From a virus (Duplodnaviria; Heunggongvirae; Uroviricota; Caudoviricetes), in the IMG/VR virus record IMGVR_UViG_2541047850_000006, positions 1 through 42,657 of that record: a stretch of 42,657 bases of DNA, one strand, 5' to 3'. The notes below the pieces were generated by a model. That model was not told where the DNA came from. It did not search any database and saw only the letters and a list, made by a program, of their open reading frames with translations. The translations under genes and the position numbers were made by a program. Shown here in pieces: positions 5,283-42,657 of the stretch (position 1 is the first letter of the stretch; each line of letters starts with the position of its first letter).

Positions 5283-6032
5283 TTAATTATATAGGGGATC
5301 AATAAACCACCGTGCTTCTTCCAGTTCTTCTGGAAAGTGGGCGGAAATAAGGCGCTCTGGAACGATTTCCATTAGCCAGATAGCGGAGAAAATTGCGCGT
5401 ATGCGCTTGCTGCGAGGGATGGTGCGCAAACGCTCCAGAATCCACTCAAAATAGCTTTCCTGAATCGGGTTGAACTGCATGTCTCCCATATGCTTAAAGC
5501 TAACCAGAGAGTCATCCAGACGGGTTGTTGCGCGTCTGGCTAATTTCTCTTCAAATATCTCAATCAGTTCTGGCTGCCATAAATGCTGCGGACGCGGCAG
5601 CTTGTCCCACAGACGTCGTGCAGCTGCGGAAAGCACGGTGGAGATAAAGTAGTCGTATGAGCAACAATAGCGGTCAGCAAACTGGCGTGCTTTCCATAAC
5701 GACGTTTTATTGGCAGTCGACAACTCCTGATAAGGCAGGCGTTTTAACCCGGTGGTGAACGGAGCTGTTTCAAAGTGTTCGCGACCGTGCGTCAGCATGA
5801 TATTTGAGTACTGACGTTTGTATGCCTCCGTAAAAAGACAGGTGGCCATGAGAGGATGCATGTCGCAGTAATCAAACCACTTCGTCTCGAAGAGTTCAGC
5901 CTCGTCTTTACAGCGCGACAAACCAATGTTTTCAGCGACCCACTTGTCCATAACAGCGGTATTCCACTCTGTCATGAAGTCGTACTGGTCGTTGTCGATG
6001 GTATCGAAAAAGATTTGGCTCATGTGGCTCAC
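5283..6032 (-). CDS. Hypothetical protein (about 246 aa from ATG at ~6023)
   Basis: Track ORF (GTG start); an in-frame ATG 9 nt downstream has an AGGTGA SD; a palindromic motif overlaps the start region (6036-6055). Confidence 0.5.
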   Translation of the reverse strand: MSHMSQIFFDTIDNDQYDFMTEWNTAVMDKWVAENIGLSRCKDEAELFETKWFDYCDMHPLMATCLFTEAYKRQYSNIMLTHGREHFETAPFTTGLKRLPYQELSTANKTSLWKARQFADRYCCSYDYFISTVLSAAARRLWDKLPRPQHLWQPELIEIFEEKLARRATTRLDDSLVSFKHMGDMQFNPIQESYFEWILERLRTIPRSKRIRAIFSAIWLMEIVPERLISAHFPEELEEARWFIDPLYN

Positions 6033-11856: not shown

Positions 11857-14216
11857 TCCACAACCTCCCCAAGCTGCGCATCTGTTAGCTCTTTATGCCA
11901 GAGACGAAAATTCCTCACATGCCCAAATAAATGGCGTAATCCTGCTGTAGTTTGTCCACCAATGCGAATGGTTGCTGTACTCCGGATATATTCCCATTTG
12001 GTTTTAGTTTCGCTGCTTAACTTACCGTTACTGACTACACATGTGGACCGTTCGGACTTTACCCGCATACCAATAAGCATTTTTTTCAGCCCGGCATTTT
12101 CATTTATTCGTCGGTCTGAACCACCTATATCGCAATACGGAAAACCGTCGTACCCACCTGATGAACCAAACCCCATTACGATCCCCGCTCCGGTTTGATG
12201 ACCGCCGGTATCAAAAACACGCGGCGCTACATTTGGCGTTTTATACCAGTTCTTATGTACCTCACAAAAAACCGTAAAAGGAAGATTATAAAGATTATTC
12301 TTAATCGGAACTGTAACCATATCGCTTGCCCGCGTCGCCGCCGTCGTTCCTGATATAATAAAAGATGATACACACGAACCATCCTCAACCTGAGGGGTAG
12401 CCAGATAAATATAGTCACCAGATTCAACGACACCACCTTTTTTTGGTGCGTATTGTATTGCAGAGGTTATGTAAGTTTCTTTACTTGCTTGAATCGTTGC
12501 CTCTGCAAAAATCCAGCCCGTAACTTCATCTTTGTTAACTCGTGCGGTGAGCCTGTCGGCAGCTACACCGGTGATTTCAACCAATAAAGACCGCGTATTA
12601 ACAATGGCATATCCAAGATTAGATGAAGCGCTGCCATTGAAGGCTTCAAACCTGATCTTTAACAGGAGTTCCAAATCCGTTTTAAATCTGCACGATGTCG
12701 TCACGCACTTATTATCGCCTGATACATCGACAGCCCCCGAGGTTGAAACTACTGCCATATTAAGGGTTGTACTTTGCCCAATTAATGATTCATTACAAAC
12801 AAACTTTCCATAAGTAAAACCAAAACCATCAGTTCCAACCTCAGCGACATTCATATTTGCAGATTTACCCCAAGAAGCTGGAGTTGCTGAATTTAACATG
12901 TAGTTGGTTCGCTGACCTTCAATCAATAAACCTTCTTTTTCAAATCGTGGCTCATTAATTTCCGCCGTTTTCAGTTCGCCAGATTTGTTGATATATGTTG
13001 CCGTTGATGCGCGACTGAAATTAACCTGTTTATCACTGGCAACCTGAACCACATTATCACCAATCTTCACTTTTTTATAACCCGGAGAATAGCCCGTAAT
13101 CATATCCAGCGAATCATTAAAGGGTATCCACACATCCGGCAGCGGCTGTAAAACATATCTGTACGGCTCTGCTGTCTGGTTTGCGTATTCTCTGGCAGCA
13201 TCTTCACTTGCTTTTGCTGCCGTCTGGCTTGCTGCCGATGCTTTCGCCGAGTTCGCCGCCGCTGTTTCGCTCACCTTTGCGTTGGCTTCACTGGTTTTTG
13301 CTGCTTTTTGACTGTTAGCTGATGCAGTGGCAGAAGCAGCCGCCGCGCTTGCAGAACTGGCTGCGGCACTCTCGCTTTGGGCCGCTGCATCCTGACTGCT
13401 TTTCGCCGCAGTTTCACTGGCTTTGGCATTCGTTTCGCTGGTCTTCGCTGCCGTCTGGCTGGACTTTGCGTTAGTTTCACTCGTCTTCGCAGCTTTCTGG
13501 CTGTTAGCCGCGGCAGTTGCTGATCCGGCAGCTGAAGTCGCAGAACCAGCTGCGGCACTCTCGCTTTCGGCTGCCGCCGCCTGGCTGTTTTTTGCTGCGG
13601 TAGCGGAGTTGGCGGCAGCACTCTGACTCGATTTTGCAGCTACCTCGCTATTTTTCGCATTAGTTTCGCTGGTCTTTGAAGCTGTCTCACTCGCTTTTGA
13701 GTTAGTTTCTGATTTTTTGGCCGCTGTTGCGCTCGCTGCCGCCTCTTTAGCTTTTTGTGCAGCGGTGTTAATTATGGGAGTATTTTCTTTATACCATTCT
13801 AGGTTCTCATTGTGCTCATTAACGATCTGCGTAAGGGATTTTACGGTTAATTCCGTGCCATCTTCACGCTCAATTGTTATTTTATCCACAGCAGTCAGCC
13901 AACTACGCATCATTTTTGAATCGGCTGACATGCGAGACATAAGCGCAGTAAAACGAGCACTAAATTGGGTCAAATCACCTTCATAGGTCGTAATTATTCT
14001 GCACGGAACATTTGTTTGGGTGCTGCCACCGTAGGCTTCAACAAGAGTTAACGAAGTGTCACTCTCGATTGATTTTATTTCATATAACTTATTATCGGGG
14101 CCAATCAATATCATACCTGGAAGGACGCCGTTCGTCGTCACTCCCCAGGCTGTGCCTGTTCCCACTACAGTTTTATTTCCTTTAGTGAGATTTATTGTAC
14201 CTTCCCTGTACCACAT
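11853..14216 (-). CDS. Side tail fiber protein (lambdoid Stf-like) with Ala/Ser/Thr-rich KSETNAK-type tandem repeats
   Basis: Repeat block ...AAKKSETNSKASETASKTSETNAKNSE...SQKAAKTSETNAKSSQTAAKTSETNAKASETAAKSSQ... matches my recollection of lambdoid Stf repeats; ATG with SD; located after J. Confidence 0.75.
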   Translation of the reverse strand: MWYREGTINLTKGNKTVVGTGTAWGVTTNGVLPGMILIGPDNKLYEIKSIESDTSLTLVEAYGGSTQTNVPCRIITTYEGDLTQFSARFTALMSRMSADSKMMRSWLTAVDKITIEREDGTELTVKSLTQIVNEHNENLEWYKENTPIINTAAQKAKEAAASATAAKKSETNSKASETASKTSETNAKNSEVAAKSSQSAAANSATAAKNSQAAAAESESAAAGSATSAAGSATAAANSQKAAKTSETNAKSSQTAAKTSETNAKASETAAKSSQDAAAQSESAAASSASAAAASATASANSQKAAKTSEANAKVSETAAANSAKASAASQTAAKASEDAAREYANQTAEPYRYVLQPLPDVWIPFNDSLDMITGYSPGYKKVKIGDNVVQVASDKQVNFSRASTATYINKSGELKTAEINEPRFEKEGLLIEGQRTNYMLNSATPASWGKSANMNVAEVGTDGFGFTYGKFVCNESLIGQSTTLNMAVVSTSGAVDVSGDNKCVTTSCRFKTDLELLLKIRFEAFNGSASSNLGYAIVNTRSLLVEITGVAADRLTARVNKDEVTGWIFAEATIQASKETYITSAIQYAPKKGGVVESGDYIYLATPQVEDGSCVSSFIISGTTAATRASDMVTVPIKNNLYNLPFTVFCEVHKNWYKTPNVAPRVFDTGGHQTGAGIVMGFGSSGGYDGFPYCDIGGSDRRINENAGLKKMLIGMRVKSERSTCVVSNGKLSSETKTKWEYIRSTATIRIGGQTTAGLRHLFGHVRNFRLWHKELTDAQLGEVVE

Positions 14217-14309
14217 TTATCCTTTGCTCCTAGATATGGTGGGCGTTCTATGCTCACCATTAAGTTAGTACCTACCTATTTTTACAGAAATGATTATTTT
14301 TTTCCACAA

Positions 14310-17300
14310 TCAAAGTCGACCAATTCTTACCCTGAGTACATTATTGTCGTCGTAAACGTCGATTCTCTGCCCATTGATAACTAATCTCCCATTTCCGCCA
14401 CTGTTACCGTTAATCTCAAGCGTTCCGTTTTTGCCAAATCTCCATCCGGCTCGTCCTCTTACGAAGTTTGTTGATTGTAAGTCACCTACCTTTGCGTTTG
14501 TGATAGTGCCATCTTTGATATAAGCACCGTTCATATACGCAACGCTGTTTTCGATAACAAATGGCGTTGTGATCTTCCCATTAACATTGTTGACCAAACC
14601 AAATCGATCTGCCCGCACCAAAAACTGAGAAAGCCCCGTTGTATCAATACCCAGCGCAATGCCCGCTACATACTTCTGCCCACCACTCGTTGAAGTTTCC
14701 ATCTTCAATGTGTACGAGGTTGATACTTTTCTATTAGCGTCAGCTATAGCAGAAGCCTGCTGCTGAATAACGGCAACATTTCCATCTACAGACGCTTTCA
14801 GTGTATCAATTCGTTTTCCTAGAGCGTTGTCTGCACTTGTTCTGGCCTTTGACTCTGACGTAATCGCTGCATTGATATAATTTGTTGTTTGCGACTGGAG
14901 ATTAGTTACCCTTGTCGAAAGCGCTGCATCAGCATCAGTTCTGGCTTTCGTCTCTTCTGCTACAGCAGCCTTTATATCTTTACCTGTTTGTGTCTTTAGT
15001 GAGTTAATCTGCGACGTCAATGCGGTATCAGCGGCAGCTCTTGCTTGAGTTTCAACCGCAACAGCTGCACTTATATCCTTAGCAGTTTTTGTTTTAAAAC
15101 TTGCCAAGTCTTTTGCAATGGCAGAATCCTGACTTGTACGAGATGTCGATTCTCGCTCTATCGAGGACTGAAGATTATTAGCCCTCGTAGTAAGAGAAGA
15201 AATTTGTCTGGATAATGCATCGTTAGCGTCAGTTCTTGCTTTGGTTTCAACTGCTACCGCCGCTGCAATATCTTTACCTGTTTTTGTTTTTAAACTACTA
15301 ACTTCTCTTGATAGTGCACTATCGCCTGATGCTCTGGCTTCTCTTTCCTCATTAATAGCAGCAGATATATCGTTATTAACTTTTGTTTGAAGTTGAGTTA
15401 TTTGCCTTGATAATGCTTCATCTTGCGTTGCTCTTGTTTGTTGCTCTTCTCTAATAGCGGTTGAAATATCAGTATTTACTTTAGACTCCAGTTGTGTGAT
15501 CTGCTTTGAAAGAGTCTCATTGGCCGATGCTCTTGCAGATTGTTCGGTCCTTATTGCGGCACTGATATCACCTTCAAATTTACTCTGTAATTGTGTCACA
15601 CGATTGGCTAACGCATTATCACCATCAGTTCTGGCTGTCGCTTCTTCGAGAATAGATGCTCGAATGTTGTCACCAATCTCGGCTCGTATCTCTTCAACCT
15701 TAGACGCCATTGCTGACACATCATCGACAAGAATCTTTTGAGTCGTGGCAATTTTCGCGTTATTTACCAGCTGTCTGTGCTGATCTTCGTCCTGCCGCAA
15801 CGCAAGATCGATATTTGTCTTAGAAATGGCTTCAAGATTAGTTGTGATTTCTGAACTTACTCTTCCTACCTCAGCAACCGTTCTCCGCATTTCTTCTACA
15901 GCCGCAACACTTTCATCAACCGATGATCTCATCGTTTCTATCTTTTTAGCATTCGCTAGATCTGCTTGTGCACGAACTTTACGCTCTTCGGCAATTAAAG
16001 ATGATGCATTTTCAAGTGCCGCATTTGCTGCTTCTACGACACCAGCAACAGAATCACCTTGTTTTGATACTGTATTACGTAGTTCAATAAGTGCTGCATT
16101 TGAATTTTCAACTTGTCGTAATGCATCATCTACTTTTTCCCGAGTGCTAGAAACTTCCGTTCTAAGCTCGCTTTGCGCATTCTCCAGTGTCTCGCTGCGT
16201 TCAGTAAACGATGTTTTGAACTCATCGATACTACTCGTTAGCTCCTTATTTAATGCGGAAATTTCACCTTCCAGAGATTCGACGCTCTGATCGATATGAT
16301 TATTGATTTCATCAACAGCTTGTTGAGAAGCCTTACTGTCAATTTCCTCATTTAAAGCCTGGCCAAGTTCTGACGAGGTAATTTTATTGGCTAAAAATGA
16401 AAGAACATCTCGCGTTGTGGCCTCTGTACCAAGATTTGAGTTTGGGCGACTCAACATGCCACGCTTATTTGCTGATCTAACCCAGTAATACCAAGTTTCA
16501 CTATCCCCAAGACCAGCATGTGTAAAGGTGGTGCTTGCAGACTCTGCGATCAGTTTCGCCGTATCCAGATTGTTGGTCTGGGATGCGTAAACATTAATGT
16601 GATCAAGGTCTACCGAATCTGGATTGACCCAATTCAGTATCACATTACGATAGTCCCCAACTGCCGTTAATGACGTTGGTGCATCCGGCGGTGTCATTGT
16701 GCCCAGCACCTGATAAACGGTACTGATAATCTCTGTTTTTTTACCGTTGAATGAAACCGCATACAGTTGGAAGTCGTAGCGTCCATTCTCCGCGACATTA
16801 ACGATTTCGTATTGCTCTTCGGTTACACGTGCCGATTGCCAGTTCGATACATTGTTTTCATCAGAACGTCGCCAACTGATCCAATACTCTGGAGATTTCC
16901 CTTCCCATGTTGCAGTCAGTTTTACTGACAGGTTGCCTGGGCTTGAGAGATAAGTCCCTTCGGTGATTTGCAAATTAGACGGCTTGGAGTAAGTCGGGTC
17001 CAATACCGTCGTATTCTGCGGGATAAGCGTTGCACCATTGTCGATTGCCTCATATTTAGACGGATTGTTCTCAACAGCGGTGATGTCAAAGCTACCCGAC
17101 GTTTCCCCCTGAGCGATGTTAACGATGCGAACGCGCATAGGTTCGAGATCTGGTTCTGTGATTGTCCATACACCGTTCAAAACAGGCGTTTCCGCTGACG
17201 ACAGAGCTTTTGAAAACGTAACCTTTGTTATGTTTTCGCCAGTTTCAAGAACATCGCGTTCAACGATTTTGCCTTCCTGATTCAATATCCGAATAAAGCT

Positions 17301-37580: not shown

Positions 37581-38278
37581 GCAGCCATCTCCCCGGAAGA
37601 GATCTTCTCCGCATATGCCACAAATGCGTCTACCCCGCTTTCTCCCGTCATTTCTTCCATATGGGCAAGCAAATCACCAACAACAATGGCAGAGCCAGCA
37701 GGGAGAGTTTTAAAGCCCAATACGTCGACAACACGTACTTCTTCCGCTGCAACTTCACGACTGATCTCGGTGTGTTCATCCTTCTGTCGTTTAGTTTCTT
37801 CGCCAAGATCGATAACTAGCGAGTCGGTGTCCATTTCTTCTGTCATACTGCCAACGAGAACATTCAACTCACGCTCTTCAAAGCCGAAAACCTCGATATC
37901 GTCCAGAACAAGCGACTCAAGCTCTTTCTGTAGCTTAATTGCATCGTAATCAATGCTGGCAAGTCGGTTATCTTCAAGGCGCTTCGCACGAACCTCGTCA
38001 TCACTGAGATCATCGCGAACAATAACCGGTACACGCTCAAGTCCAGCAAAAATTGCAGCCTCACGGCGGCCGTGGCCAGTAATAATTACGTCGTTCTTAT
38101 CGACCGTAATTGGCTGGTCAAATCCGCGCTTTTTAATGGCTGCGGCCAGATCTCTGATCTGCTGTTCATCATGCTTTTTGGCATTCATCTCATAGGGAAT
38201 AAGATCTGCCGGGTCGCGATATACGATTTCAAACTTTTTGGTCATTACATACGCTCCTTGTAGTAGTCGACCAGCCAC
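37577..38278 (-). CDS. ParB/Srx-fold domain protein 2 (likely start at ATG near 38245)
   Basis: ParB N-terminal-domain-like ...VIITGHGRREAAIFAGLERVPV...; the ATG overlaps the stop of the upstream ParB-like gene. Confidence 0.65.
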   Translation of the reverse strand: MAGRLLQGAYVMTKKFEIVYRDPADLIPYEMNAKKHDEQQIRDLAAAIKKRGFDQPITVDKNDVIITGHGRREAAIFAGLERVPVIVRDDLSDDEVRAKRLEDNRLASIDYDAIKLQKELESLVLDDIEVFGFEERELNVLVGSMTEEMDTDSLVIDLGEETKRQKDEHTEISREVAAEEVRVVDVLGFKTLPAGSAIVVGDLLAHMEEMTGESGVDAFVAYAEKISSGEMAA

Positions 38279-38943
38279 ACCAGAGCCTCACCAGCGTTTT
38301 CCATTTCATTGCCAGTATTAATTGCCTGGTCTTTGATGATGTTTTTTATGGTTTCTGCAACGCGATCTGACGCATCGAAGGTTACTTTGAAGCGCATGGT
38401 CTGATGTTCCGCACCGACACGTTCGGTTTTCTCTCGTTTGTCGGTATCGACAGGCTCATCACTACCACGAGACAACGCCTCCAGTGCTTCAAGGTCAATT
38501 GCCGCCTCTTTTGCTAAAACCATCGAGATTTCGTCGTCATACGGGGCGATTTCAGACAGTTGATAGTCAAGTTCTGACTGAATTTCTTCAATGAAGCGTT
38601 GCAATGCGATTTGGTCGTCTTCACCGTATCGCTCGTTGTCCACCAGTGACATCTGTTTTGCCACGACATCGCTAATTTTGCCCACAGAAAGCACAGGAAC
38701 CGTTGAAATTCCTTGCTCAATAGCAGCACGCCAGCGATGTTCGCCGCCGAGGATTTCAAAAAATCCATCTTCAAGCTCACGAGCCAAAATTGGCTTAAAA
38801 AAGCCCAATTTTTCGATAGAACCTTTCAGTTTTTCGAAATTCTGCGCACCAACCGAATTGGTGTTCCAGGTATTCGGGCGAAGGTTGGCAACATCAACCT
38901 GCAAAATCGTGATTTTTACGTCCATTTTATTGCTACAATCCAC
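38245..38943 (-). CDS. ParB/Srx-fold domain protein 1 (likely start at ATG near 38925)
   Basis: ParB N-terminal-domain-like ...FEILGGEHRWRAAIEQGISTVPV...; first gene of the operon; palindromic motif immediately upstream. Confidence 0.65.
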   Translation of the reverse strand: MDCSNKMDVKITILQVDVANLRPNTWNTNSVGAQNFEKLKGSIEKLGFFKPILARELEDGFFEILGGEHRWRAAIEQGISTVPVLSVGKISDVVAKQMSLVDNERYGEDDQIALQRFIEEIQSELDYQLSEIAPYDDEISMVLAKEAAIDLEALEALSRGSDEPVDTDKREKTERVGAEHQTMRFKVTFDASDRVAETIKNIIKDQAINTGNEMENAGEALVWLVDYYKERM

Positions 38944-39007: not shown

Positions 39008-40567
39008 ATGACTGTTCGGATTGTATCTAACGCAGTAAATGCGCTTATTTCTGGCGCAGATGACAAGGTAAAGCAACTGGTGCAGCAAATGTTGAGCTAC
39101 GAAGTCGAGGCTGGCGACTGGAAGGGCACAAGCACAATGTTCAACTGGAGCAAAAACTCGTTCCCTGCTGGCTTTGCCAAGCCCGTGGCGGCTAATTTGA
39201 ACAAGGCGGGCATCAAATGTGTTCATATCCGCAAAGACAAAGCCCCGGCGCTTGGTAAACCAAATCCGGCGGTTAACCCATTCCCATACAATCCTGATTA
39301 TGCGTATCAGGATCAGACTGTGGAAACACTGGTTCGAGAGGGAATGATGATTGCGCAGATCGCTACTGGTGGCGGGAAATCTAACGTTGCCTGCAAAGCA
39401 GCTGCACGTATCGGTCGAATGACATTATTTTTAACAACCCGCTCTGTTCTGATGTTTCAAATGGCCGAAAACTTCCAGAGATCCATCGACTACCGCGCCA
39501 AAAATGGCGAACCGTGGTTAAAAGACCAAAAGGTTGGAGTCATTGGCTCGGGTGAGTTCCAGGTATCACGACATATCAACGTCGCTACAGTTCAAACTCT
39601 TGCAAGTTTCCTCGAAGAACCACCACGCGATGCAACACCAGATAAGAAAAGCTACCACCTCAAACGTCGGGAGTTGGTGAAACGCTTCCTTTCAAGTGTC
39701 TCTCTTCTTATTCTGGAAGAGGCGCATGAGTCTTCAGGCTCAAATTTCTATGACATCGCCAGATTATGTGTGAACGCAGACTATCGTCTGGCGCTTACAG
39801 CCACGCCGTTCATGAAGGATTCGACGGAAGCCAACATGCGCCTGATGGCGGTGGCCGGGCGAATTGAAATTAAAGTCACAGAAAAGTATCTGATTGATCG
39901 AGGCATTCTGGCAAAGCCGTACTTCCTTTATCATAAAGTTGCCTACAAGCCAGACGAGGCCAGAATCAAGGCCGAACTTGCCAACAAACACCTCAATTTT
40001 AGAGTTGGTATGAGCACCGCCTACCAAAAGGCTTATCAGTTGGGGATCGTGTATAATTTGGGACGTAATGAGGCCATTGTTCGCGAAGCATTGCTCTATA
40101 AGCAACATTCTCTCAATTGTATGACTCTGGTTCGTCTTAAACGCCACGGGCAAATCCTGATGGAAATGATGAAAGAGTCCGGCCTTAGAGTTGACTTCAT
40201 CTATGGGGAATCGAACCAGGCGACAAGGCAAGCAAAGCTGAACAGTTTAGCGTCTGGCGAAATAGATGTTTTAATAGGCTCGACTATTCTGGATGTCGGT
40301 GTTGATGTGCCAAGCGTTGGTGCGGTCATTCTGGCTGGTGGTGGGAAAGCAGAAGTTGAAATGAGGCAGCGTGTCGGTCGTGGCTTACGAGCCAAGAAGA
40401 ATCAGGCAAACGTGTGTTTTATCACTGATTTCATTGACATTAGCAACAAATACCTGTTGTCTCACTCTTATGAGCGAAAACACATCATCGACACCACACC
40501 TGGCTTTGCGGAAGGTGTATTGCCTATTGATGGCGCATTCGATTTTGGAGTTCTGAAACGAGATTAG
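39008..40567 (+). CDS. Superfamily-2 helicase (DEAD/DEAH-box, ResIII-like), 519 aa
   Basis: Walker A ATGGGKS, DEAH-like LEEAH, motif III LTATP, motif VI-like GRGLR; ATG with AGGAAAGAGG SD. Confidence 0.75.
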   Translation: MTVRIVSNAVNALISGADDKVKQLVQQMLSYEVEAGDWKGTSTMFNWSKNSFPAGFAKPVAANLNKAGIKCVHIRKDKAPALGKPNPAVNPFPYNPDYAYQDQTVETLVREGMMIAQIATGGGKSNVACKAAARIGRMTLFLTTRSVLMFQMAENFQRSIDYRAKNGEPWLKDQKVGVIGSGEFQVSRHINVATVQTLASFLEEPPRDATPDKKSYHLKRRELVKRFLSSVSLLILEEAHESSGSNFYDIARLCVNADYRLALTATPFMKDSTEANMRLMAVAGRIEIKVTEKYLIDRGILAKPYFLYHKVAYKPDEARIKAELANKHLNFRVGMSTAYQKAYQLGIVYNLGRNEAIVREALLYKQHSLNCMTLVRLKRHGQILMEMMKESGLRVDFIYGESNQATRQAKLNSLASGEIDVLIGSTILDVGVDVPSVGAVILAGGGKAEVEMRQRVGRGLRAKKNQANVCFITDFIDISNKYLLSHSYERKHIIDTTPGFAEGVLPIDGAFDFGVLKRD

Positions 40568-40569
40568 TT

Positions 40570-40848
40570 ATGAGCGAAAAGAAAACAACTTATTGCCAAG
40601 TGGCATTGTCTGATAAGGCCAATGAAAAACTTGGAAAATTCCAAATAAAACTCAAAGAGAAAAAAATCAAGATGTCTAAGGCTGAAGTTATCAATGCCAT
40701 TCTGGAGACGATGACTATGGCTGAATTTGACAAAGTCACATCTGCCGTTGGGGTTTCCGCTAAGACGCGTGAGAAAATCATGCGCATCTATGAAAACTCC
40801 AATATGACAAAAAAAGATCTAGAGGAAATACTGAGCAGGTTGCCGTAA
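40570..40848 (+). CDS. Small ribbon-helix-helix-like protein candidate (92 aa)
   Basis: N-terminal beta-strand-like TTYCQVAL followed by two helices (SDKANEKLGKF..., MSKAEVINAILETM); begins 3 nt after the helicase stop; visibly AT-rich. Confidence 0.4.
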   Translation: MSEKKTTYCQVALSDKANEKLGKFQIKLKEKKIKMSKAEVINAILETMTMAEFDKVTSAVGVSAKTREKIMRIYENSNMTKKDLEEILSRLP

Positions 40849-40880
40849 CATTTCATATTTACCCCCTATCTACTAATTCT

Positions 40881-40916
40881 ATGATGTGCTCACTTGTTAG
40901 AAAGGAGCACATCATG
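40881..40916 (+). promoter_or_regulatory. 11-bp perfect inverted repeat ATGATGTGCTC-N13-GAGCACATCAT enclosing the SD (AGGAG) and ATG of the downstream gene
   Basis: Read directly; either an mRNA hairpin sequestering the RBS or a palindromic operator. Confidence 0.5.
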
Positions 40917-41480
40917 AGTTGGTTAAAAGAATTATCATTTGTTGACACCACTGGCGCTAAGAAAAATCATTCTTTCTGGAAAGTCAGCGATCCTTCTGAT
41001 TTTCTTGTTGGCGTTAATGCTGCTTTTGAATTGCTTAACTTTTATCAACGTTATCCTGAAATGAAACACAGTCCACTCCTGTACAGAATAACAAACGATA
41101 TGAATAGGTCTGGTTTATTATCAAGTGAGTCAGCGAAAGGCTTTTTTAGCAAAATAACGCCACACATATCATTCGATGCTGCAAACGAAATTGATTATCT
41201 ATCCACGAAACCTCAAGAACAATTATCTGTACTACCTGAGAAAAAAGAAAGACGAATTGCCAGCATTGAAAATATATCGAAAGAGCTTCGCACAACAACG
41301 TTGAGGCTGCTGAACTTTCTTACGCTACTAAATTGGATAGATGATCAAACATTGATTCCATCAACCGATGCGTTGGATAACAGAGTCCTTAGGCTGAACA
41401 AAAAATCGCAATTTGGTTTTGTGTTCACCAAAAAAGGTGAAGATTTAATCAAAAGAAAATATAGATTATTGAATGATTAA
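40881..41480 (+). CDS. Hypothetical protein (about 188 aa from ATG at ~40914), AT-rich
   Basis: Track ORF; the ATG inside the inverted repeat is preceded by AGGAG; no recognisable domain. Confidence 0.5.
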   Translation: MMCSLVRKEHIMSWLKELSFVDTTGAKKNHSFWKVSDPSDFLVGVNAAFELLNFYQRYPEMKHSPLLYRITNDMNRSGLLSSESAKGFFSKITPHISFDAANEIDYLSTKPQEQLSVLPEKKERRIASIENISKELRTTTLRLLNFLTLLNWIDDQTLIPSTDALDNRVLRLNKKSQFGFVFTKKGEDLIKRKYRLLND

Positions 41481-41486
41481 TAGTCT

Positions 41487-41536
41487 ACATGCAGGTGTAT
41501 GAGAGCACCTGCATGTGACATTCATCACATTTTTTG
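41487..41536 (+). terminator. Terminator-like hairpin (11-bp stem ACATGCAGGTG/CACCTGCATGT) with a downstream T-run
   Basis: Read directly; the T-tract is displaced ~15 nt from the stem, so efficiency is uncertain. Confidence 0.45.
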
Positions 41537-41624
41537 AAGTGCACACCTCCGGCTGAAAAAAATTCTTGATTGGCTGAATGATATTTGTAGGCTTCATCGC
41601 TGAGTTTGGTCGAAGGGATAGCTA

Positions 41625-42200
41625 ATGGCTCTTTCAAATACACAACTTCACACGATATTGGATAAAGCTTCATATGTATCAAATGGGACACTTAGCGAAA
41701 ATAACATTCAGATACAACGGGGGAAAGAAACGAAAGATAAAATTCACGCTAAAGGTTTCTACTTCGGAAAGAGTTCAGCATTACGAGAATCTTATTCAAA
41801 AAACAACCCTTACTACATTTATTTAATTTCACCAGACAATGAGGAAAGACGAGATGATTATTCATTGGTCATTTTCCCTTTCCAGATAAAAGAAATACTT
41901 CCTGTGATCGAAAGTATAGATGGTATTACCCCAGGATATATTCAGTTAAGCTCAAACTTCAATACGTTCAAAATTCACAATCGCTTAAAAAGTGATTCAT
42001 ATTGTGGCGTAGGCTACTCTATAAAGGTTGAGAACGAAGACAGTCTATGGGAACTTATTGTGCAGATCAAGAAAAGGCTTGAGTTACCTAGAGGAGATAA
42101 GAACAGACTATCGACGCTACCTCAGAATGGATTACCTAAGACAAAAGAGGAAAATACACCTCAAAAGCTGATTGTAGATCTGCTCAACAAACGCTCATAA
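41625..42200 (+). CDS. Hypothetical protein (191 aa), AT-rich
   Basis: Track ORF; no confident domain. Confidence 0.5.
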   Translation: MALSNTQLHTILDKASYVSNGTLSENNIQIQRGKETKDKIHAKGFYFGKSSALRESYSKNNPYYIYLISPDNEERRDDYSLVIFPFQIKEILPVIESIDGITPGYIQLSSNFNTFKIHNRLKSDSYCGVGYSIKVENEDSLWELIVQIKKRLELPRGDKNRLSTLPQNGLPKTKEENTPQKLIVDLLNKRS

Positions 42201-42207
42201 ACTCTCA

Positions 42208-42582
42208 TTGTCAAAGACGGTTAAAAAGATGAAGTCTAAAAAAATTCAATTTTTTTCTATGGCACTCTTGGCATTCTATATAGGAAATACAGTAGCCAAA
42301 CCTTTAACGCCCGTTCAGCAAGATTACATTAAAAATATTATAGAAAAACAATTACTGGCCCCGGATGCAGCTAAATACAAATTCCCAGATCACGTTGAAG
42401 GTAGCAATACATATTGTTTCAAACTAAATGCGACTAACTCATATGGTGGGTATACAGGTTACAGATGGGTACAAATTCCTTACAATGACGTGTTAACCAA
42501 GAACAGCAACACTATTGTAGATCTAAATATCCTACCTAAAGAGGTTTTTGAAGAAAGCTGTAAAGAATTAGGGTATAAGTAG
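42208..42582 (+). CDS. Small secreted/periplasmic protein candidate (124 aa) with N-terminal signal peptide
   Basis: MKSKKIQFFSMALLAFYIGNTVA resembles a Sec signal peptide; two Cys in the mature part. Confidence 0.5.
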   Translation: MSKTVKKMKSKKIQFFSMALLAFYIGNTVAKPLTPVQQDYIKNIIEKQLLAPDAAKYKFPDHVEGSNTYCFKLNATNSYGGYTGYRWVQIPYNDVLTKNSNTIVDLNILPKEVFEESCKELGYK

Positions 42583-42657
42583 CTCATCACTTGGAAGCAT
42601 ACCCTCGACAATATCAGAAAGATTTGTCGAGGGTTCGGACTTTCCCTATGTCTGAAC

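What the first reader, a model, noticed from the sequence alone, without database searches (positions are those of the whole stretch)
40570..42657. AT-rich island of small unknown genes at the right edge (RHH-like protein, two ~190-aa unknowns, small secreted protein)
Seen: from about 40570 to the window end the sequence is visibly AT-rich compared with the phage backbone (by eye roughly mid-30s % GC against about half; not computed). It encodes a 92-aa RHH-like protein, a ~188-aa ORF whose SD and ATG lie inside an 11-bp perfect inverted repeat, a terminator-like hairpin, a 191-aa ORF and a 124-aa signal-peptide protein. Inference: the compositional break plus its own regulatory hairpins suggests a horizontally acquired moron cassette. 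In phages and plasmids such cassettes often encode superinfection exclusion, abortive infection, toxin-antitoxin or anti-defence functions. The window truncates the island.
Basis: partly seen in the sequence, partly recalled or inferred. Interest (0 to 1): 0.65.

Follow-up and report, generated by a model that had tools for sequence, protein, structure and literature searches.

The report
Variable accessory-gene slot of a phage-plasmid
The AT-rich right edge of the window is real: it is the start of a swappable accessory-gene slot found in SSU5-like phage-plasmids (relatives of Yersinia pestis pMT1 and Salmonella Typhi pHCM2), and that slot nearly always carries genes for exported envelope proteins of untested function, most plausibly used to change the cell surface or to keep out other phages.

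Summary

The window is Escherichia phage PhiR41_1, an SSU5-like phage-plasmid.

- orf92 is a core gene, not cargo. It occurs in 790 plasmids, has backbone-like GC3, and its Cyrano orthologue is transcribed in LF82 lysogens.
- The atypical composition starts at orf188.
- orf188, orf191 and orf117 sit in a variable slot between orf92 and an FljA-like regulator. Ten slot layouts were seen in 89 loci, and 87 of them encode at least one exported protein.
- The same gene order, with the same low GC, recurs in Klebsiella and Cronobacter elements at 43-62% amino-acid identity. The cargo is therefore old, fast-evolving and reshuffled, not one recent insertion.

orf188 starts inside a conserved 16-bp RNA hairpin. 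orf191 (weak YgaC/DUF2002-like fold) and periplasmic orf117 (phrog_2320) form a linked pair. orf117 relatives are low-GC morons inside tail operons of other phages.

No known defence, toxin or lysozyme-inhibitor family matched. Function is inferred only: envelope-level lysogenic conversion or superinfection exclusion.

Interest is moderate.

The parts
40570..40848 (+). orf92: a 92-aa basic protein (pI 9.5) starting 2 nt after the helicase stop. It is a core gene of the SSU5 supergroup, not cargo. The beta-helix-helix (RHH-like) pattern is unverified.
   Evidence: ORF. tblastn finds it in 790 PLSDB plasmids, including Y. pestis pMT1 and S. Typhi pHCM2. It matches phrog_1466 only. GC3 is 0.467, like the backbone. 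Its Cyrano orthologue CYRAN_117 is 12-fold above prophage background in LF82 lysogens (PMC9928086).
40872..40923 (+). Stem-loop that buries most of the Shine-Dalgarno (AGGAG, 40903-40907) and the ATG (40914) of orf188. The core is the 11-bp perfect inverted repeat 40881-91 / 40905-15.
   Evidence: Repeat. RNA dG -29, z -5.9. Nine distinct versions from 30 loci all fold at -24 to -30 kcal/mol. The consensus helix is 16 bp with 93% of cells paired, 2 pairs changed on both sides, and G-U wobbles. It occurs only in elements that carry orf188.
40914..41480 (+). orf188: a 188-aa basic cytoplasmic protein (phrog_13473). The family is restricted to SSU5-like elements, and its RNA is at background level in lysogens.
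   Evidence: Among 1.84 billion representative proteins, only two full-length relatives beyond its own cluster were found (43% and 26% identity). It occurs in 179 plasmids. CYRAN_116 RNA is about 1x background. GC3 is 0.319.
41487..41535 (+). Terminator-like element after orf188: a 12-bp hairpin (41487-41516), then a mini-hairpin GTGA..TCAC and a T-run (41530-41535).
   Evidence: Five divergent versions keep the hairpin with different stem sequences (z -4.5 to -7.0).
41546..41595 (+). Conserved non-coding block: CCTCCGGCT (41546-54), TTGATT (41566-71), GTAGGCTTC (41587-95). The junction with the variable cargo lies directly after 41595.
   Evidence: Alignment with Cyrano and CMS-2020a. The block is present in 25 loci, always after orf188 and ahead of whatever cargo follows. 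A related block lies upstream of the orf191-like gene in a divergent K. oxytoca element. No consensus sigma-70 promoter was found here.
41625..42200 (+). orf191: a 191-aa basic cytoplasmic protein (phrog_29155) with an alpha/beta core weakly resembling YgaC/DUF2002. It is the upstream gene of a two-gene module.
42229..42582 (+). orf117 (124 aa if read from TTG 42208): a small exported protein with a signal peptide and two conserved Cys, in family phrog_2320. It is the downstream gene of the module.
42601..42634 (.). An 11-bp perfect inverted repeat between the convergent orf117 and the lipoprotein gene just outside the window. It is the right-hand junction of the orf191-orf117 module.
   Evidence: (dG -27.9, z -4.0). 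Homology with Cyrano resumes here.

Best explanation
Where it sits (shown). The window's right edge is the left part of a variable accessory slot of SSU5-like phage-plasmids. The slot lies between the core helicase-orf92 pair and a conserved FljA-like regulator.

What PhiR41_1 carries there (shown). There are three low-GC cargo units.
(a) orf188, whose ribosome-binding site and start codon are locked in a conserved RNA hairpin. It is followed by a conserved terminator-like element and a conserved non-coding block.
(b) The linked pair orf191 (cytoplasmic, weak YgaC-like fold) and orf117 (small periplasmic disulfide protein, phrog_2320).
(c) Just beyond the window, a convergent lipoprotein carrying the same phrog_2320 domain.

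How the cargo behaves (shown). It is exchanged between relatives at the conserved non-coding junctions. It evolves much faster than the backbone.

What it probably does (inferred). The slot supplies the lysogen with envelope proteins for lysogenic conversion. The most likely role is superinfection exclusion at the periplasm or membrane, meaning receptor masking or a block to DNA entry.

Roles of the cytoplasmic proteins (inferred). The basic proteins orf188 and orf191 would act as control factors, not effectors. The hairpin would keep orf188 untranslated on read-through transcripts from the lysogenically expressed helicase-orf92 unit.

My confidence by layer:
- slot and cargo architecture, about 0.85;
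- envelope-level exclusion or conversion as the function, about 0.35-0.4;
- a regulatory role for orf191 or orf188, about 0.3.
For: Identity: 100% match to PhiR41_1.

Synteny and rates.
- The order helicase-orf92-orf188-orf191-orf117-regulator is conserved in Cronobacter and Klebsiella elements, with the same GC trough.
- Amino-acid identities are helicase 91-93%, orf92 54-57%, orf188 43%, orf191 47-48%, orf117 58-62%.

Nested distribution in PLSDB: orf92 790, orf188 179, orf191 83, orf117 81 plasmids.

Slot survey of 89 loci.
- There are 10 layouts; 87 hold at least one exported protein (phrog_890 lipoprotein, orf117, the 266-aa lipoprotein, or a 204-aa secreted protein).
- orf191 is always followed by orf117.
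- Low GC belongs to particular cargo types, not to the slot as such.

Junctions. The orf191-orf117 module is absent from Cyrano and replaced in CMS-2020a, with the junctions at 41595 and the 42601 hairpin.

Independent linkage of the orf191 family with exported proteins.
- In a 301-kb conjugative K. michiganensis plasmid it lies divergent from a lipoprotein with the orf117-type domain.
- In a K. oxytoca element it lies divergent from a 204-aa-type secreted protein.
- In CMS-2020a a distant homologue precedes a secreted protein.

orf117 relatives as tail-operon morons.
- In Fraca and LMessi it lies between gpK-like and gpI-like tail genes.
- Their GC is 0.38-0.41 against 0.52-0.53 for the locus.
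- The chaperone/tape-measure position is that of the HK97 gp15 exclusion moron (PMC3594210).

Hairpins.

Expression in an LF82(Cyrano) lysogen: helicase 46, orf92 114, orf188 9, lipoprotein 29 normalised units; orf92 is 12x background (PMC9928086).

Phenotype. A Klebsiella SSU5-like plasmid lowers plating of three lytic phages 10- to 100-fold; the gene responsible is unknown (PMC8969562).
Against: - No protein here has a tested function or a significant match to a characterised family.
- Export of orf117 rests on reading the N-terminus. No predictor or experiment supports it.
- Both AF2 models are of modest confidence (pLDDT 63 and 71), and the YgaC match is by fold only.
- There are no expression data for orf191 or orf117, because Cyrano lacks them.
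- The slot survey counts related, partly near-identical elements, so 87/89 is not 87 independent events.
- Exported prophage proteins can serve other ends, such as serum resistance or adhesion.
- No consensus promoter was found ahead of orf191.
Confidence: 0.6

Rival explanations
1. One reading: 40570 to the window end is one horizontally acquired moron cassette, recently inserted into the phage backbone.
For: A clear GC drop, own hairpins, and presence/absence of orf191-orf117 among close relatives.
Against: orf92 is in 790 plasmids across at least nine named genera and has backbone-like GC3. The same four genes, in the same order and with the same low GC, occur in Klebsiella and Cronobacter elements at 43-62% identity. 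The units have nested, independent distributions (179, 83 and 81 plasmids) and combine in 10 layouts.
Confidence: 0.08
2. orf92 plus orf188 form a type II toxin-antitoxin or abortive-infection pair. orf92 would be an RHH antitoxin and repressor acting on the palindrome, and orf188 a toxin held in check.
For: orf92 shows an RHH-like sequence pattern by eye. The upstream gene is small and basic. A palindrome overlaps the orf188 start. orf92 RNA is about 12-fold higher than orf188 RNA in lysogens.
Against: orf92 occurs without orf188 in about three quarters of plasmids (790 against 179). Neither protein hits a toxin, antitoxin or defence model. G-U wobbles in the stem favour an RNA structure over a DNA operator. 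The genes are 65 nt apart.
Confidence: 0.07
3. orf92 and orf188 (and perhaps orf191) are regulators of the phage-plasmid's own life cycle, such as the lysis-lysogeny or plasmid-state switch. On this reading they are not host-directed cargo.
For: All three are basic (pI 9.0-9.5). orf92 is core and expressed in lysogeny at about the level of the putative repressor. orf188 is silent in lysogeny and tightly locked at the RNA level. There are weak sub-threshold resemblances to winged-helix regulators (2esh_A, E 1.4). Conserved non-coding blocks lie next to these genes.
Against: orf188 and orf191 are missing from most family members, which nevertheless persist as phage-plasmids. No DNA-binding domain reached significance. 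This rival overlaps with the best explanation for orf92.
Confidence: 0.2
4. orf191 and/or orf188 are anti-defence proteins that counter host immunity on entry. The exported proteins would be unrelated neighbours.
For: The families are narrow and fast-evolving, and they sit in a variable hotspot. An orf191 relative lies on a conjugative plasmid.
Against: They do not match any model in the libraries used (PADLOC holds defence, not anti-defence, models). They are not acidic DNA mimics. orf191-family genes lie next to exported-protein genes in four different arrangements.
Confidence: 0.08
5. The exported proteins are host-fitness or virulence conversion factors (serum resistance, adhesion, envelope stress), like lambda Bor or Lom, and have nothing to do with phage exclusion.
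For: They are exported or lipid-anchored. The neighbouring lipoprotein and regulator rise in macrophage samples in LF82. Loss of a Klebsiella SSU5-like plasmid changed virulence (PMC8969562).
Against: There is no similarity to Bor, Lom or other known factors in any library. Recurrence of the orf117 family inside tail operons is equally compatible with exclusion. Nothing here separates the two roles.
Confidence: 0.2

Closest known systems
Morons of lambdoid phages (for example HK97 gene 15; Juhala et al. 2000, Cumby et al. 2012, as summarised in PMC3594210)
   Same: Extra genes with GC unlike their neighbours, present or absent between relatives, bounded by their own hairpins, and often encoding envelope proteins. 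An orf117 relative sits in exactly the HK97 gp15 position (chaperone / tape measure) in Klebsiella phage 5 LV-2017.
   Different: Here the cargo lies in one fixed slot of a phage-plasmid, in several nested units. It is old within the family (orthologues at 43-62% identity). Expression from the prophage is shown only for orf92, which is not cargo. There is no sequence similarity to gp15/YebO.
Exported or membrane superinfection-exclusion proteins (P1 Sim, T4 Sp/Imm, T5 Llp, phi80/N15 Cor, P22 SieA). P1 Sim, T4 Sp/Imm and T5 Llp are from my own knowledge; Cor and SieA are also mentioned in PMC3594210.
   Same: Small prophage- or phage-encoded proteins that act in the envelope. P1 Sim is a processed periplasmic protein of another phage-plasmid.
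   Different: No sequence or fold similarity was found. No exclusion phenotype has been tested. orf117 comes with a cytoplasmic partner gene.
YgaC / DUF2002 (PDB 2g7j)
   Different: The sequence relation is not significant. orf191 has an extra N-terminal helical hairpin and a C-terminal tail. YgaC itself has no known function, so the match gives a fold, not a mechanism.
Start-site-sequestering hairpins that block translation of read-through transcripts (for example IS10 'fold-back inhibition'; from my own knowledge)
   Same: The 5' arm lies upstream of the gene's likely own transcription start and pairs with the Shine-Dalgarno and ATG. Transcripts from upstream would therefore be untranslatable. 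A -10-like TATGAT (40880-85) overlaps the left arm.
   Different: The transcription start is unmapped and the promoter match is weak. The stem could instead be an RNase III site, a 3'-end stabiliser for orf92 mRNA, or a protein operator.
Ribbon-helix-helix regulators (CopG/Arc/MetJ)
   Same: orf92 residues about 8-46 show an alternating hydrophobic strand followed by two helices. The protein is small and basic.
   Different: There is no significant match to any RHH family or structure, and no structure model was made.

Membership tests
Moron (as defined in PMC3594210, after Juhala et al. 2000) | [quoted passage not shown] | tested here: met
   GC3 of orf188, orf191 and orf117 is 0.32-0.34 against a backbone of 0.477 +/- 0.053 (minimum 0.382). 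This is not met for orf92 (0.467).
Moron | An addition relative to related genomes (present or absent between relatives) | tested here: met
   orf191-orf117 are absent from Cyrano and replaced in CMS-2020a. There are 10 slot layouts in 89 loci. orf92 does not meet this (790 plasmids).
Moron | Own promoter and terminator | tested here: inconclusive
   Conserved terminator-like hairpins follow orf188 and orf117. Promoter-like hits number 13 against 8.1 +/- 2.9 expected, with none ahead of orf191.
Moron | Expressed from the repressed prophage | tested here: inconclusive
   In LF82/Cyrano RNA-seq, orf92 is 12x background and orf188 about 1x. There are no data for orf191 or orf117.
Ribbon-helix-helix DNA-binding proteins (orf92) | Significant match to an RHH family or structure | tested here: not met
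   There are no RHH hits in Pfam, NCBIfam or the PDB, with single sequences or a 7-sequence profile. The fold itself was not modelled.
Type II toxin-antitoxin pair (orf92 + orf188) | The two genes are inherited together | tested here: not met
   orf92 is in 790 plasmids and orf188 in 179. Most slots lack orf188.
Type II toxin-antitoxin pair (orf92 + orf188) | Recognisable toxin or antitoxin domain | tested here: not met
Known anti-phage defence systems (PADLOC-DB 2.0) | A protein matches a defence-system model | tested here: not met
   The only hit is a spurious SspC match for orf188 (12.8 bits, E 0.004).
Periplasmic lysozyme inhibitors (Ivy, PliC/MliC, PliG) for orf117 | Sequence or fold similarity to an inhibitor family | tested here: not met
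YgaC / DUF2002 (orf191) | Match to the Pfam family or significant profile similarity | tested here: not met
   Pfam gives nothing at E <= 10. The PDB profile search does not find 2g7j. hhalign against E. coli YgaC gives E 0.22.
YgaC / DUF2002 (orf191) | Same fold | tested here: inconclusive
Superinfection-exclusion proteins (a functional class) | Located in the envelope | tested here: inconclusive
   orf117 has a signal-peptide-like N-terminus with two conserved Cys, and the paralogue has a lipobox. These are read from the sequence. No predictor or experiment was used.
Superinfection-exclusion proteins (a functional class) | Blocks infection by the same or other phages | not testable with these tools
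   The only support is plasmid-level: a Klebsiella SSU5-like plasmid lowers plating 10- to 100-fold (PMC8969562).

The most novel reading that the evidence does not exclude
The orf191-family protein together with an adjacent exported protein would be an undescribed two-gene module, in which a cytoplasmic YgaC-fold factor controls or senses for an interchangeable periplasmic or lipoprotein effector that blocks phage entry or remodels the envelope. orf188 would complete the picture: with its start-site lock, its 3' structured element and the conserved block, it would act as a conditional expression platform for whatever cargo is plugged in downstream.
Probability: 0.15. Interest if true: 0.6.

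Novelty: new member of a known kind. Interest (0 to 1): 0.4.

Why it matters
SSU5-like phage-plasmids are common in clinical Enterobacteriaceae. orf92 alone marks 790 plasmids, including Y. pestis pMT1 and S. Typhi pHCM2. Most of their accessory genes are unannotated.

This analysis gives three things to work with.
- A single locus in these elements nearly always encodes an exported protein. That gives a defined place to look for the genes behind the plasmid-level phage resistance and virulence effects already reported.
- Two uncharacterised protein families (phrog_2320 and the YgaC-like phrog_29155/25050 group) can now be tested as a pair.
- A conserved start-site hairpin can be tested with simple reporter fusions.

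If the proteins turn out to be ordinary conversion factors, the result is a modest annotation gain.

Tried and rejected
- Pfam, NCBIfam, PADLOC and PHROGs on all four proteins returned only PHROGs of unknown function.
- Word-indexed homologue searches on orf191, orf117 and orf188 gave narrow families and no names.
- An exhaustive representative search for orf188 found only two full-length relatives beyond its own cluster.
- PDB profile searches for orf191, orf92, orf188 and orf117 found nothing significant. The designed-repeat hits for orf92 and the PadR-like 2esh hit for orf188 (E 1.4) were treated as noise or, at most, leads.
- The sequence test of the YgaC link failed.
- BFVD fold search for orf191 found nothing. 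The afdb50 library was unavailable.
- Rfam found nothing.
- Literature searches for the PHROG ids, for PhiR41, and for fljA in SSU5/pHCM2/pMT1 found nothing relevant. The 'YgaC' in PMC12234827 is a different protein, a DUF402 protein of S. pyogenes.
- Not attempted: dN/dS (synonymous sites are saturated at these distances), and co-variation of slot type with tail genes (confounded by clonal relatedness, and the flanks were not fetched).
Full report
1. WHAT THE WINDOW IS

The whole right end of the window is 100% identical to Escherichia phage PhiR41_1 (PV340561.1, 107,998 bp, circular). It is 95-98% identical to other E. coli SSU5-like phage-plasmids such as Cyrano (pLF82) and CMS-2020a. Window coordinate = L001 coordinate + 31,569.

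2. THE OBSERVATION

GC is 0.368 for 40570-42657 against 0.462 for the rest. No other 2088-bp window falls below 0.419. The four ORFs exist. Three 11-bp perfect inverted repeats lie at 40881-91/40905-15, 41487-97/41506-16 and 42601-11/42624-34. All three fold far better than shuffled sequence (z -5.9, -2.9 and -4.0).

Start codons. The conserved start of the second gene is the ATG at 40914 (188 aa). In Cronobacter the upstream ATG is out of frame (reading). The last gene most likely starts at ATG 42229 (117 aa), as in its orthologues and in the GenBank record.

Codon-position analysis refines the picture. orf92 has backbone-like GC3 (0.467 against 0.477 +/- 0.053) and is AT-rich only at codon positions 1 and 2. 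orf188, orf191 and orf117 have GC3 of 0.32-0.34, below every one of the 27 backbone ORFs. Low GC continues about 0.8 kb beyond the window, through a convergent lipoprotein gene. The compositional island proper begins after orf92, and the window does truncate it.

3. NOT A RECENT SINGLE INSERTION

Cronobacter and Klebsiella SSU5-like elements share this gene order: helicase (519 aa), 92 aa, about 179 aa, 191-201 aa, 117-118 aa, FljA-like regulator (176 aa), 216 aa. The middle genes form the same GC trough there: 0.32-0.42 against 0.50-0.55 in the flanks.

Identities to PhiR41_1 are 91-93% for the helicase and 83-86% for the 216-aa protein. They are only 54-57% for orf92, 43% for orf188, 47-48% for orf191 and 58-62% for orf117. 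The block is therefore old in the family and evolves fast.

4. NESTED DISTRIBUTION

In 72,556 plasmids tblastn finds:
- orf92 in 790 (Klebsiella, Escherichia, Enterobacter, Yersinia pestis pMT1, Salmonella pHCM2 and others);
- orf188 in 179;
- orf191 in 83;
- orf117 in 81.

The exact PhiR41_1 version of orf191-orf117 is in 13 plasmids and in 8 of 5,426 complete E. coli genomes, never on a chromosome. orf92 is thus a core gene. orf191 and orf117 travel together.

5. THE SLOT

pMT1, pHCM2, pAVS0223-B and a Klebsiella plasmid have a single 140-154-aa lipoprotein (phrog_890) between orf92 and the regulator, in either orientation.

I fetched 85 more loci with an orf92 profile. Across 89 loci that contain both anchors, I classified what lies between orf92 and the regulator:

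| Slot content (+/- = strand) | Loci |
|---|---|
| phrog_890 lipoprotein, + strand | 38 |
| phrog_890 lipoprotein, - strand | 11 |
| orf188, orf191, orf117 | 11 |
| orf188, 162-aa, 204-aa secreted | 8 |
| 204-aa secreted alone | 6 |
| orf188, 204-aa secreted | 4 |
| orf188, 266-aa lipoprotein (-) | 4 |
| 266-aa lipoprotein (-) alone | 4 |
| empty (115 bp) | 2 |
| PhiR41_1 layout: orf188, orf191, orf117, 266-aa lipoprotein (-) | 1 |

So 87 of 89 slots encode at least one protein with a signal peptide or lipobox. The N-termini, read directly, are:
- LLLSAC and LLVAGC (phrog_890);
- LLLTGC (266-aa lipoprotein);
- LPAFSANA (204-aa protein);
- GNTVA|KP (orf117).

The loci are related to one another, so these are not independent counts. 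Low GC is a property of particular cargo types (0.37-0.42). The phrog_890 slots match the helicase at 0.50.

6. JUNCTIONS

Aligned with Cyrano and CMS-2020a, PhiR41_1 is collinear up to 41595. It then carries orf191-orf117 where Cyrano has about 160 bp and CMS-2020a has other genes. Homology with Cyrano resumes at the 42601 hairpin.

The last 50 bp before the left junction are a conserved non-coding block: CCTCCGGCT, TTGATT, GTAGGCTTC. It follows orf188 in 25 of 25 loci that have it, whatever cargo comes next. A related block lies upstream of the orf191-like gene in a divergent K. oxytoca element. No consensus sigma-70 promoter is found there. I take it to be a shared control region that also serves as a recombination arm. 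That is inference.

7. orf92

The protein is basic (pI 9.5) and starts 2 nt after the helicase stop. It matches only phrog_1466.

Its strand-helix-helix pattern fits a ribbon-helix-helix by eye. No RHH family or structure matched, with single sequences or a profile.

In published RNA-seq of the LF82 lysogen carrying Cyrano (PMC9928086), its orthologue CYRAN_117 is 12-fold above the prophage background. That is about the level of the putative repressor. Normalised values are helicase 46, orf92 114, orf188 9, lipoprotein 29, regulator 18.

8. orf188 AND ITS RNA STRUCTURES

The inverted repeat extends to a helix spanning 40872-40923. Nine distinct versions from 30 loci all fold at -24 to -30 kcal/mol.

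On the alignment, the consensus helix is 16 bp. 93% of cells pair, two pairs change on both sides (G:C to C:G and G:C to A:U), and several positions use G-U. The G-U pairs favour an RNA structure over a DNA operator.

The hairpin is present only where orf188 is present. Elements with the phrog_890 lipoprotein have a GC-rich terminator after orf92 instead.

The RNA level falls about 12-fold between orf92 and orf188 in lysogens. The simplest reading is that read-through transcripts from the helicase-orf92 unit cannot be translated into orf188, and may also be cut or ended there. A -10-like TATGAT overlapping the left arm would allow a hairpin-free transcript. Both points are inference.

After the orf188 stop, a 10-12-bp hairpin is kept in five divergent versions with different stem sequences (z -4.5 to -7.0). 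It is followed by GTGA..TCAC and a T-run.

The protein itself has only two full-length relatives, beyond its own cluster, among 1.84 billion representatives. It has no domain hit. A sub-threshold resemblance to a PadR-type winged helix (E 1.4) is only a lead.

9. orf191

- Only 7 clusters exist among 5.8 billion proteins, and the six with long contigs (50 kb or more) are the size of phage-plasmids.
- The AF2 model from 7 sequences has pLDDT 63 and pTM 0.66.
- Sequence tests of that link fail. YgaC has no known function.
- BFVD gives nothing.
- The protein is basic (pI 9.0), so it is not a DNA mimic.

10. orf117

- It has a signal-peptide-like N-terminus, two invariant Cys, and a conserved LLDPDSAKY...C..LNA.N.YGGYTGY core.
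- It belongs to phrog_2320, as does the N-terminal domain of the 266-aa lipoprotein just right of the window.
- No Pfam or PDB family covers the domain.

Relatives occur as low-GC genes inside tail operons of unrelated temperate phages.
- In Fraca and LMessi there is a 115-aa lipoprotein between the gpK-like and gpI-like tail genes.
- Their GC is 0.38-0.41 against 0.52-0.53 for the locus.

The first of these positions is that of the HK97 gene 15 moron, a proven exclusion gene (PMC3594210).

11. LINKAGE OF THE TWO FAMILIES

orf191 is followed by orf117 in all 12 surveyed loci that have it. Three other arrangements point the same way.
- CMS-2020a has a distant orf191 homologue (phrog_25050; 26% identity, pairwise E 2e-5) followed by an unrelated 204-aa secreted protein.
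- A divergent K. oxytoca element has an orf191-like gene divergent from a 204-aa-type secreted protein.
- A 301-kb conjugative K. michiganensis plasmid has an orf191-like gene (hhalign probability 98.6%) divergent from a lipoprotein with the orf117-type domain (probability 83.7%, pairwise E 8e-6).

The exported proteins also occur without the orf191 family. A cytoplasmic protein cannot contact a periplasmic one after export. I therefore read orf191 as an optional control factor for its exported neighbour. That is inference, at about 0.3.

12. FUNCTION

No known defence, toxin-antitoxin or anti-defence family matched. The case for envelope-level lysogenic conversion or superinfection exclusion rests on three things:
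- the near-universal presence of exported proteins in the slot;
- the recurrence of the orf117 family at classic moron positions;
- a report that curing a Klebsiella SSU5-like plasmid raised plating of three lytic phages 10- to 100-fold, with the gene responsible unknown (PMC8969562).

Other envelope roles, such as serum resistance or adhesion, are not excluded.

13. VERDICT

- It is a new example of a known kind of thing, a phage accessory hotspot carrying envelope proteins.
- Three points are worth an experiment: the slot itself, the orf191/exported-protein pairing, and the orf188 start-site hairpin.
- I found no description of this slot in the papers searched.

Noticed in passing
L001 12029-12547 (PhiR41_1, about 1.0 kb right of the window end): The conserved right-hand anchor of the slot is a full-length homologue of FljA, the Salmonella repressor of phase-1 flagellin (PF03614, E 1e-68; phrog_1444). 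It is present in every SSU5-like element examined, including pMT1 and pHCM2. I found no paper linking fljA with these plasmids.
   Followed up: partly
L001 11126-11926, minus strand (just right of the window end): A 266-aa lipoprotein (phrog_20234) lies convergent with orf117. Its N-terminal domain is a paralogue of orf117 (phrog_2320, E 1e-19). Its Cyrano orthologue CYRAN_115 is about 3-fold above prophage background in LB (29 normalised units against about 9.5) and higher in macrophage samples.
   Followed up: partly
L011 3474-3827 (Klebsiella phage 5 LV-2017, KY271399.1): [quoted passage not shown]
   Followed up: yes
L003 about 6337 (CMS-2020a), equivalent to window 40906: In this relative the orf188 Shine-Dalgarno reads AGAAG instead of AGGAG. 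The change weakens both the ribosome-binding site and the top of the hairpin (dG -24.1 instead of -29.0).
   Followed up: no
window 41191-41205 and 41334-41348: A 15-nt inverted repeat (93% complementary, arms 128 nt apart) lies inside the orf188 coding sequence. Its meaning is unknown.
   Followed up: no
L007 about 5960-6003 (Klebsiella element): The Shine-Dalgarno of the Klebsiella orf191 orthologue is itself buried in a hairpin (CCTCCATTT...AAATGGAGG). Cyrano keeps a similar hairpin plus an ATG where the cargo is missing. Start-site sequestration may recur in this slot.
   Followed up: no
L019 (JAEWTL010000044.1, labelled 'MAG: Bacillota bacterium'): A contig filed under Bacillota carries a typical enterobacterial SSU5-like locus (orf92 at 57% identity, orf188-like, 204-aa secreted protein). 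It is probably a mis-binned contig.
   Followed up: no
window 38245-38943 (minus strand) and upstream; 39008-40567: Two ParB-N-domain genes and an ABC-type ATPase gene are transcribed divergently from the DEAD-box helicase. GC skew changes sign at about 39,000, where the strand of transcription switches.
   Followed up: no
E. albertii plasmids of about 62 kb (for example CP043247.1): Plasmids about half the usual size keep the orf191-orf117 cassette at 98.5% DNA identity. orf117 is unannotated there and matches only from residue 3-5, which may indicate a decaying phage-plasmid.
   Followed up: no
window 13001-16000: There is a stretch of strongly negative AT skew (down to -0.31) in the structural-gene region. 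It was not examined.
   Followed up: no
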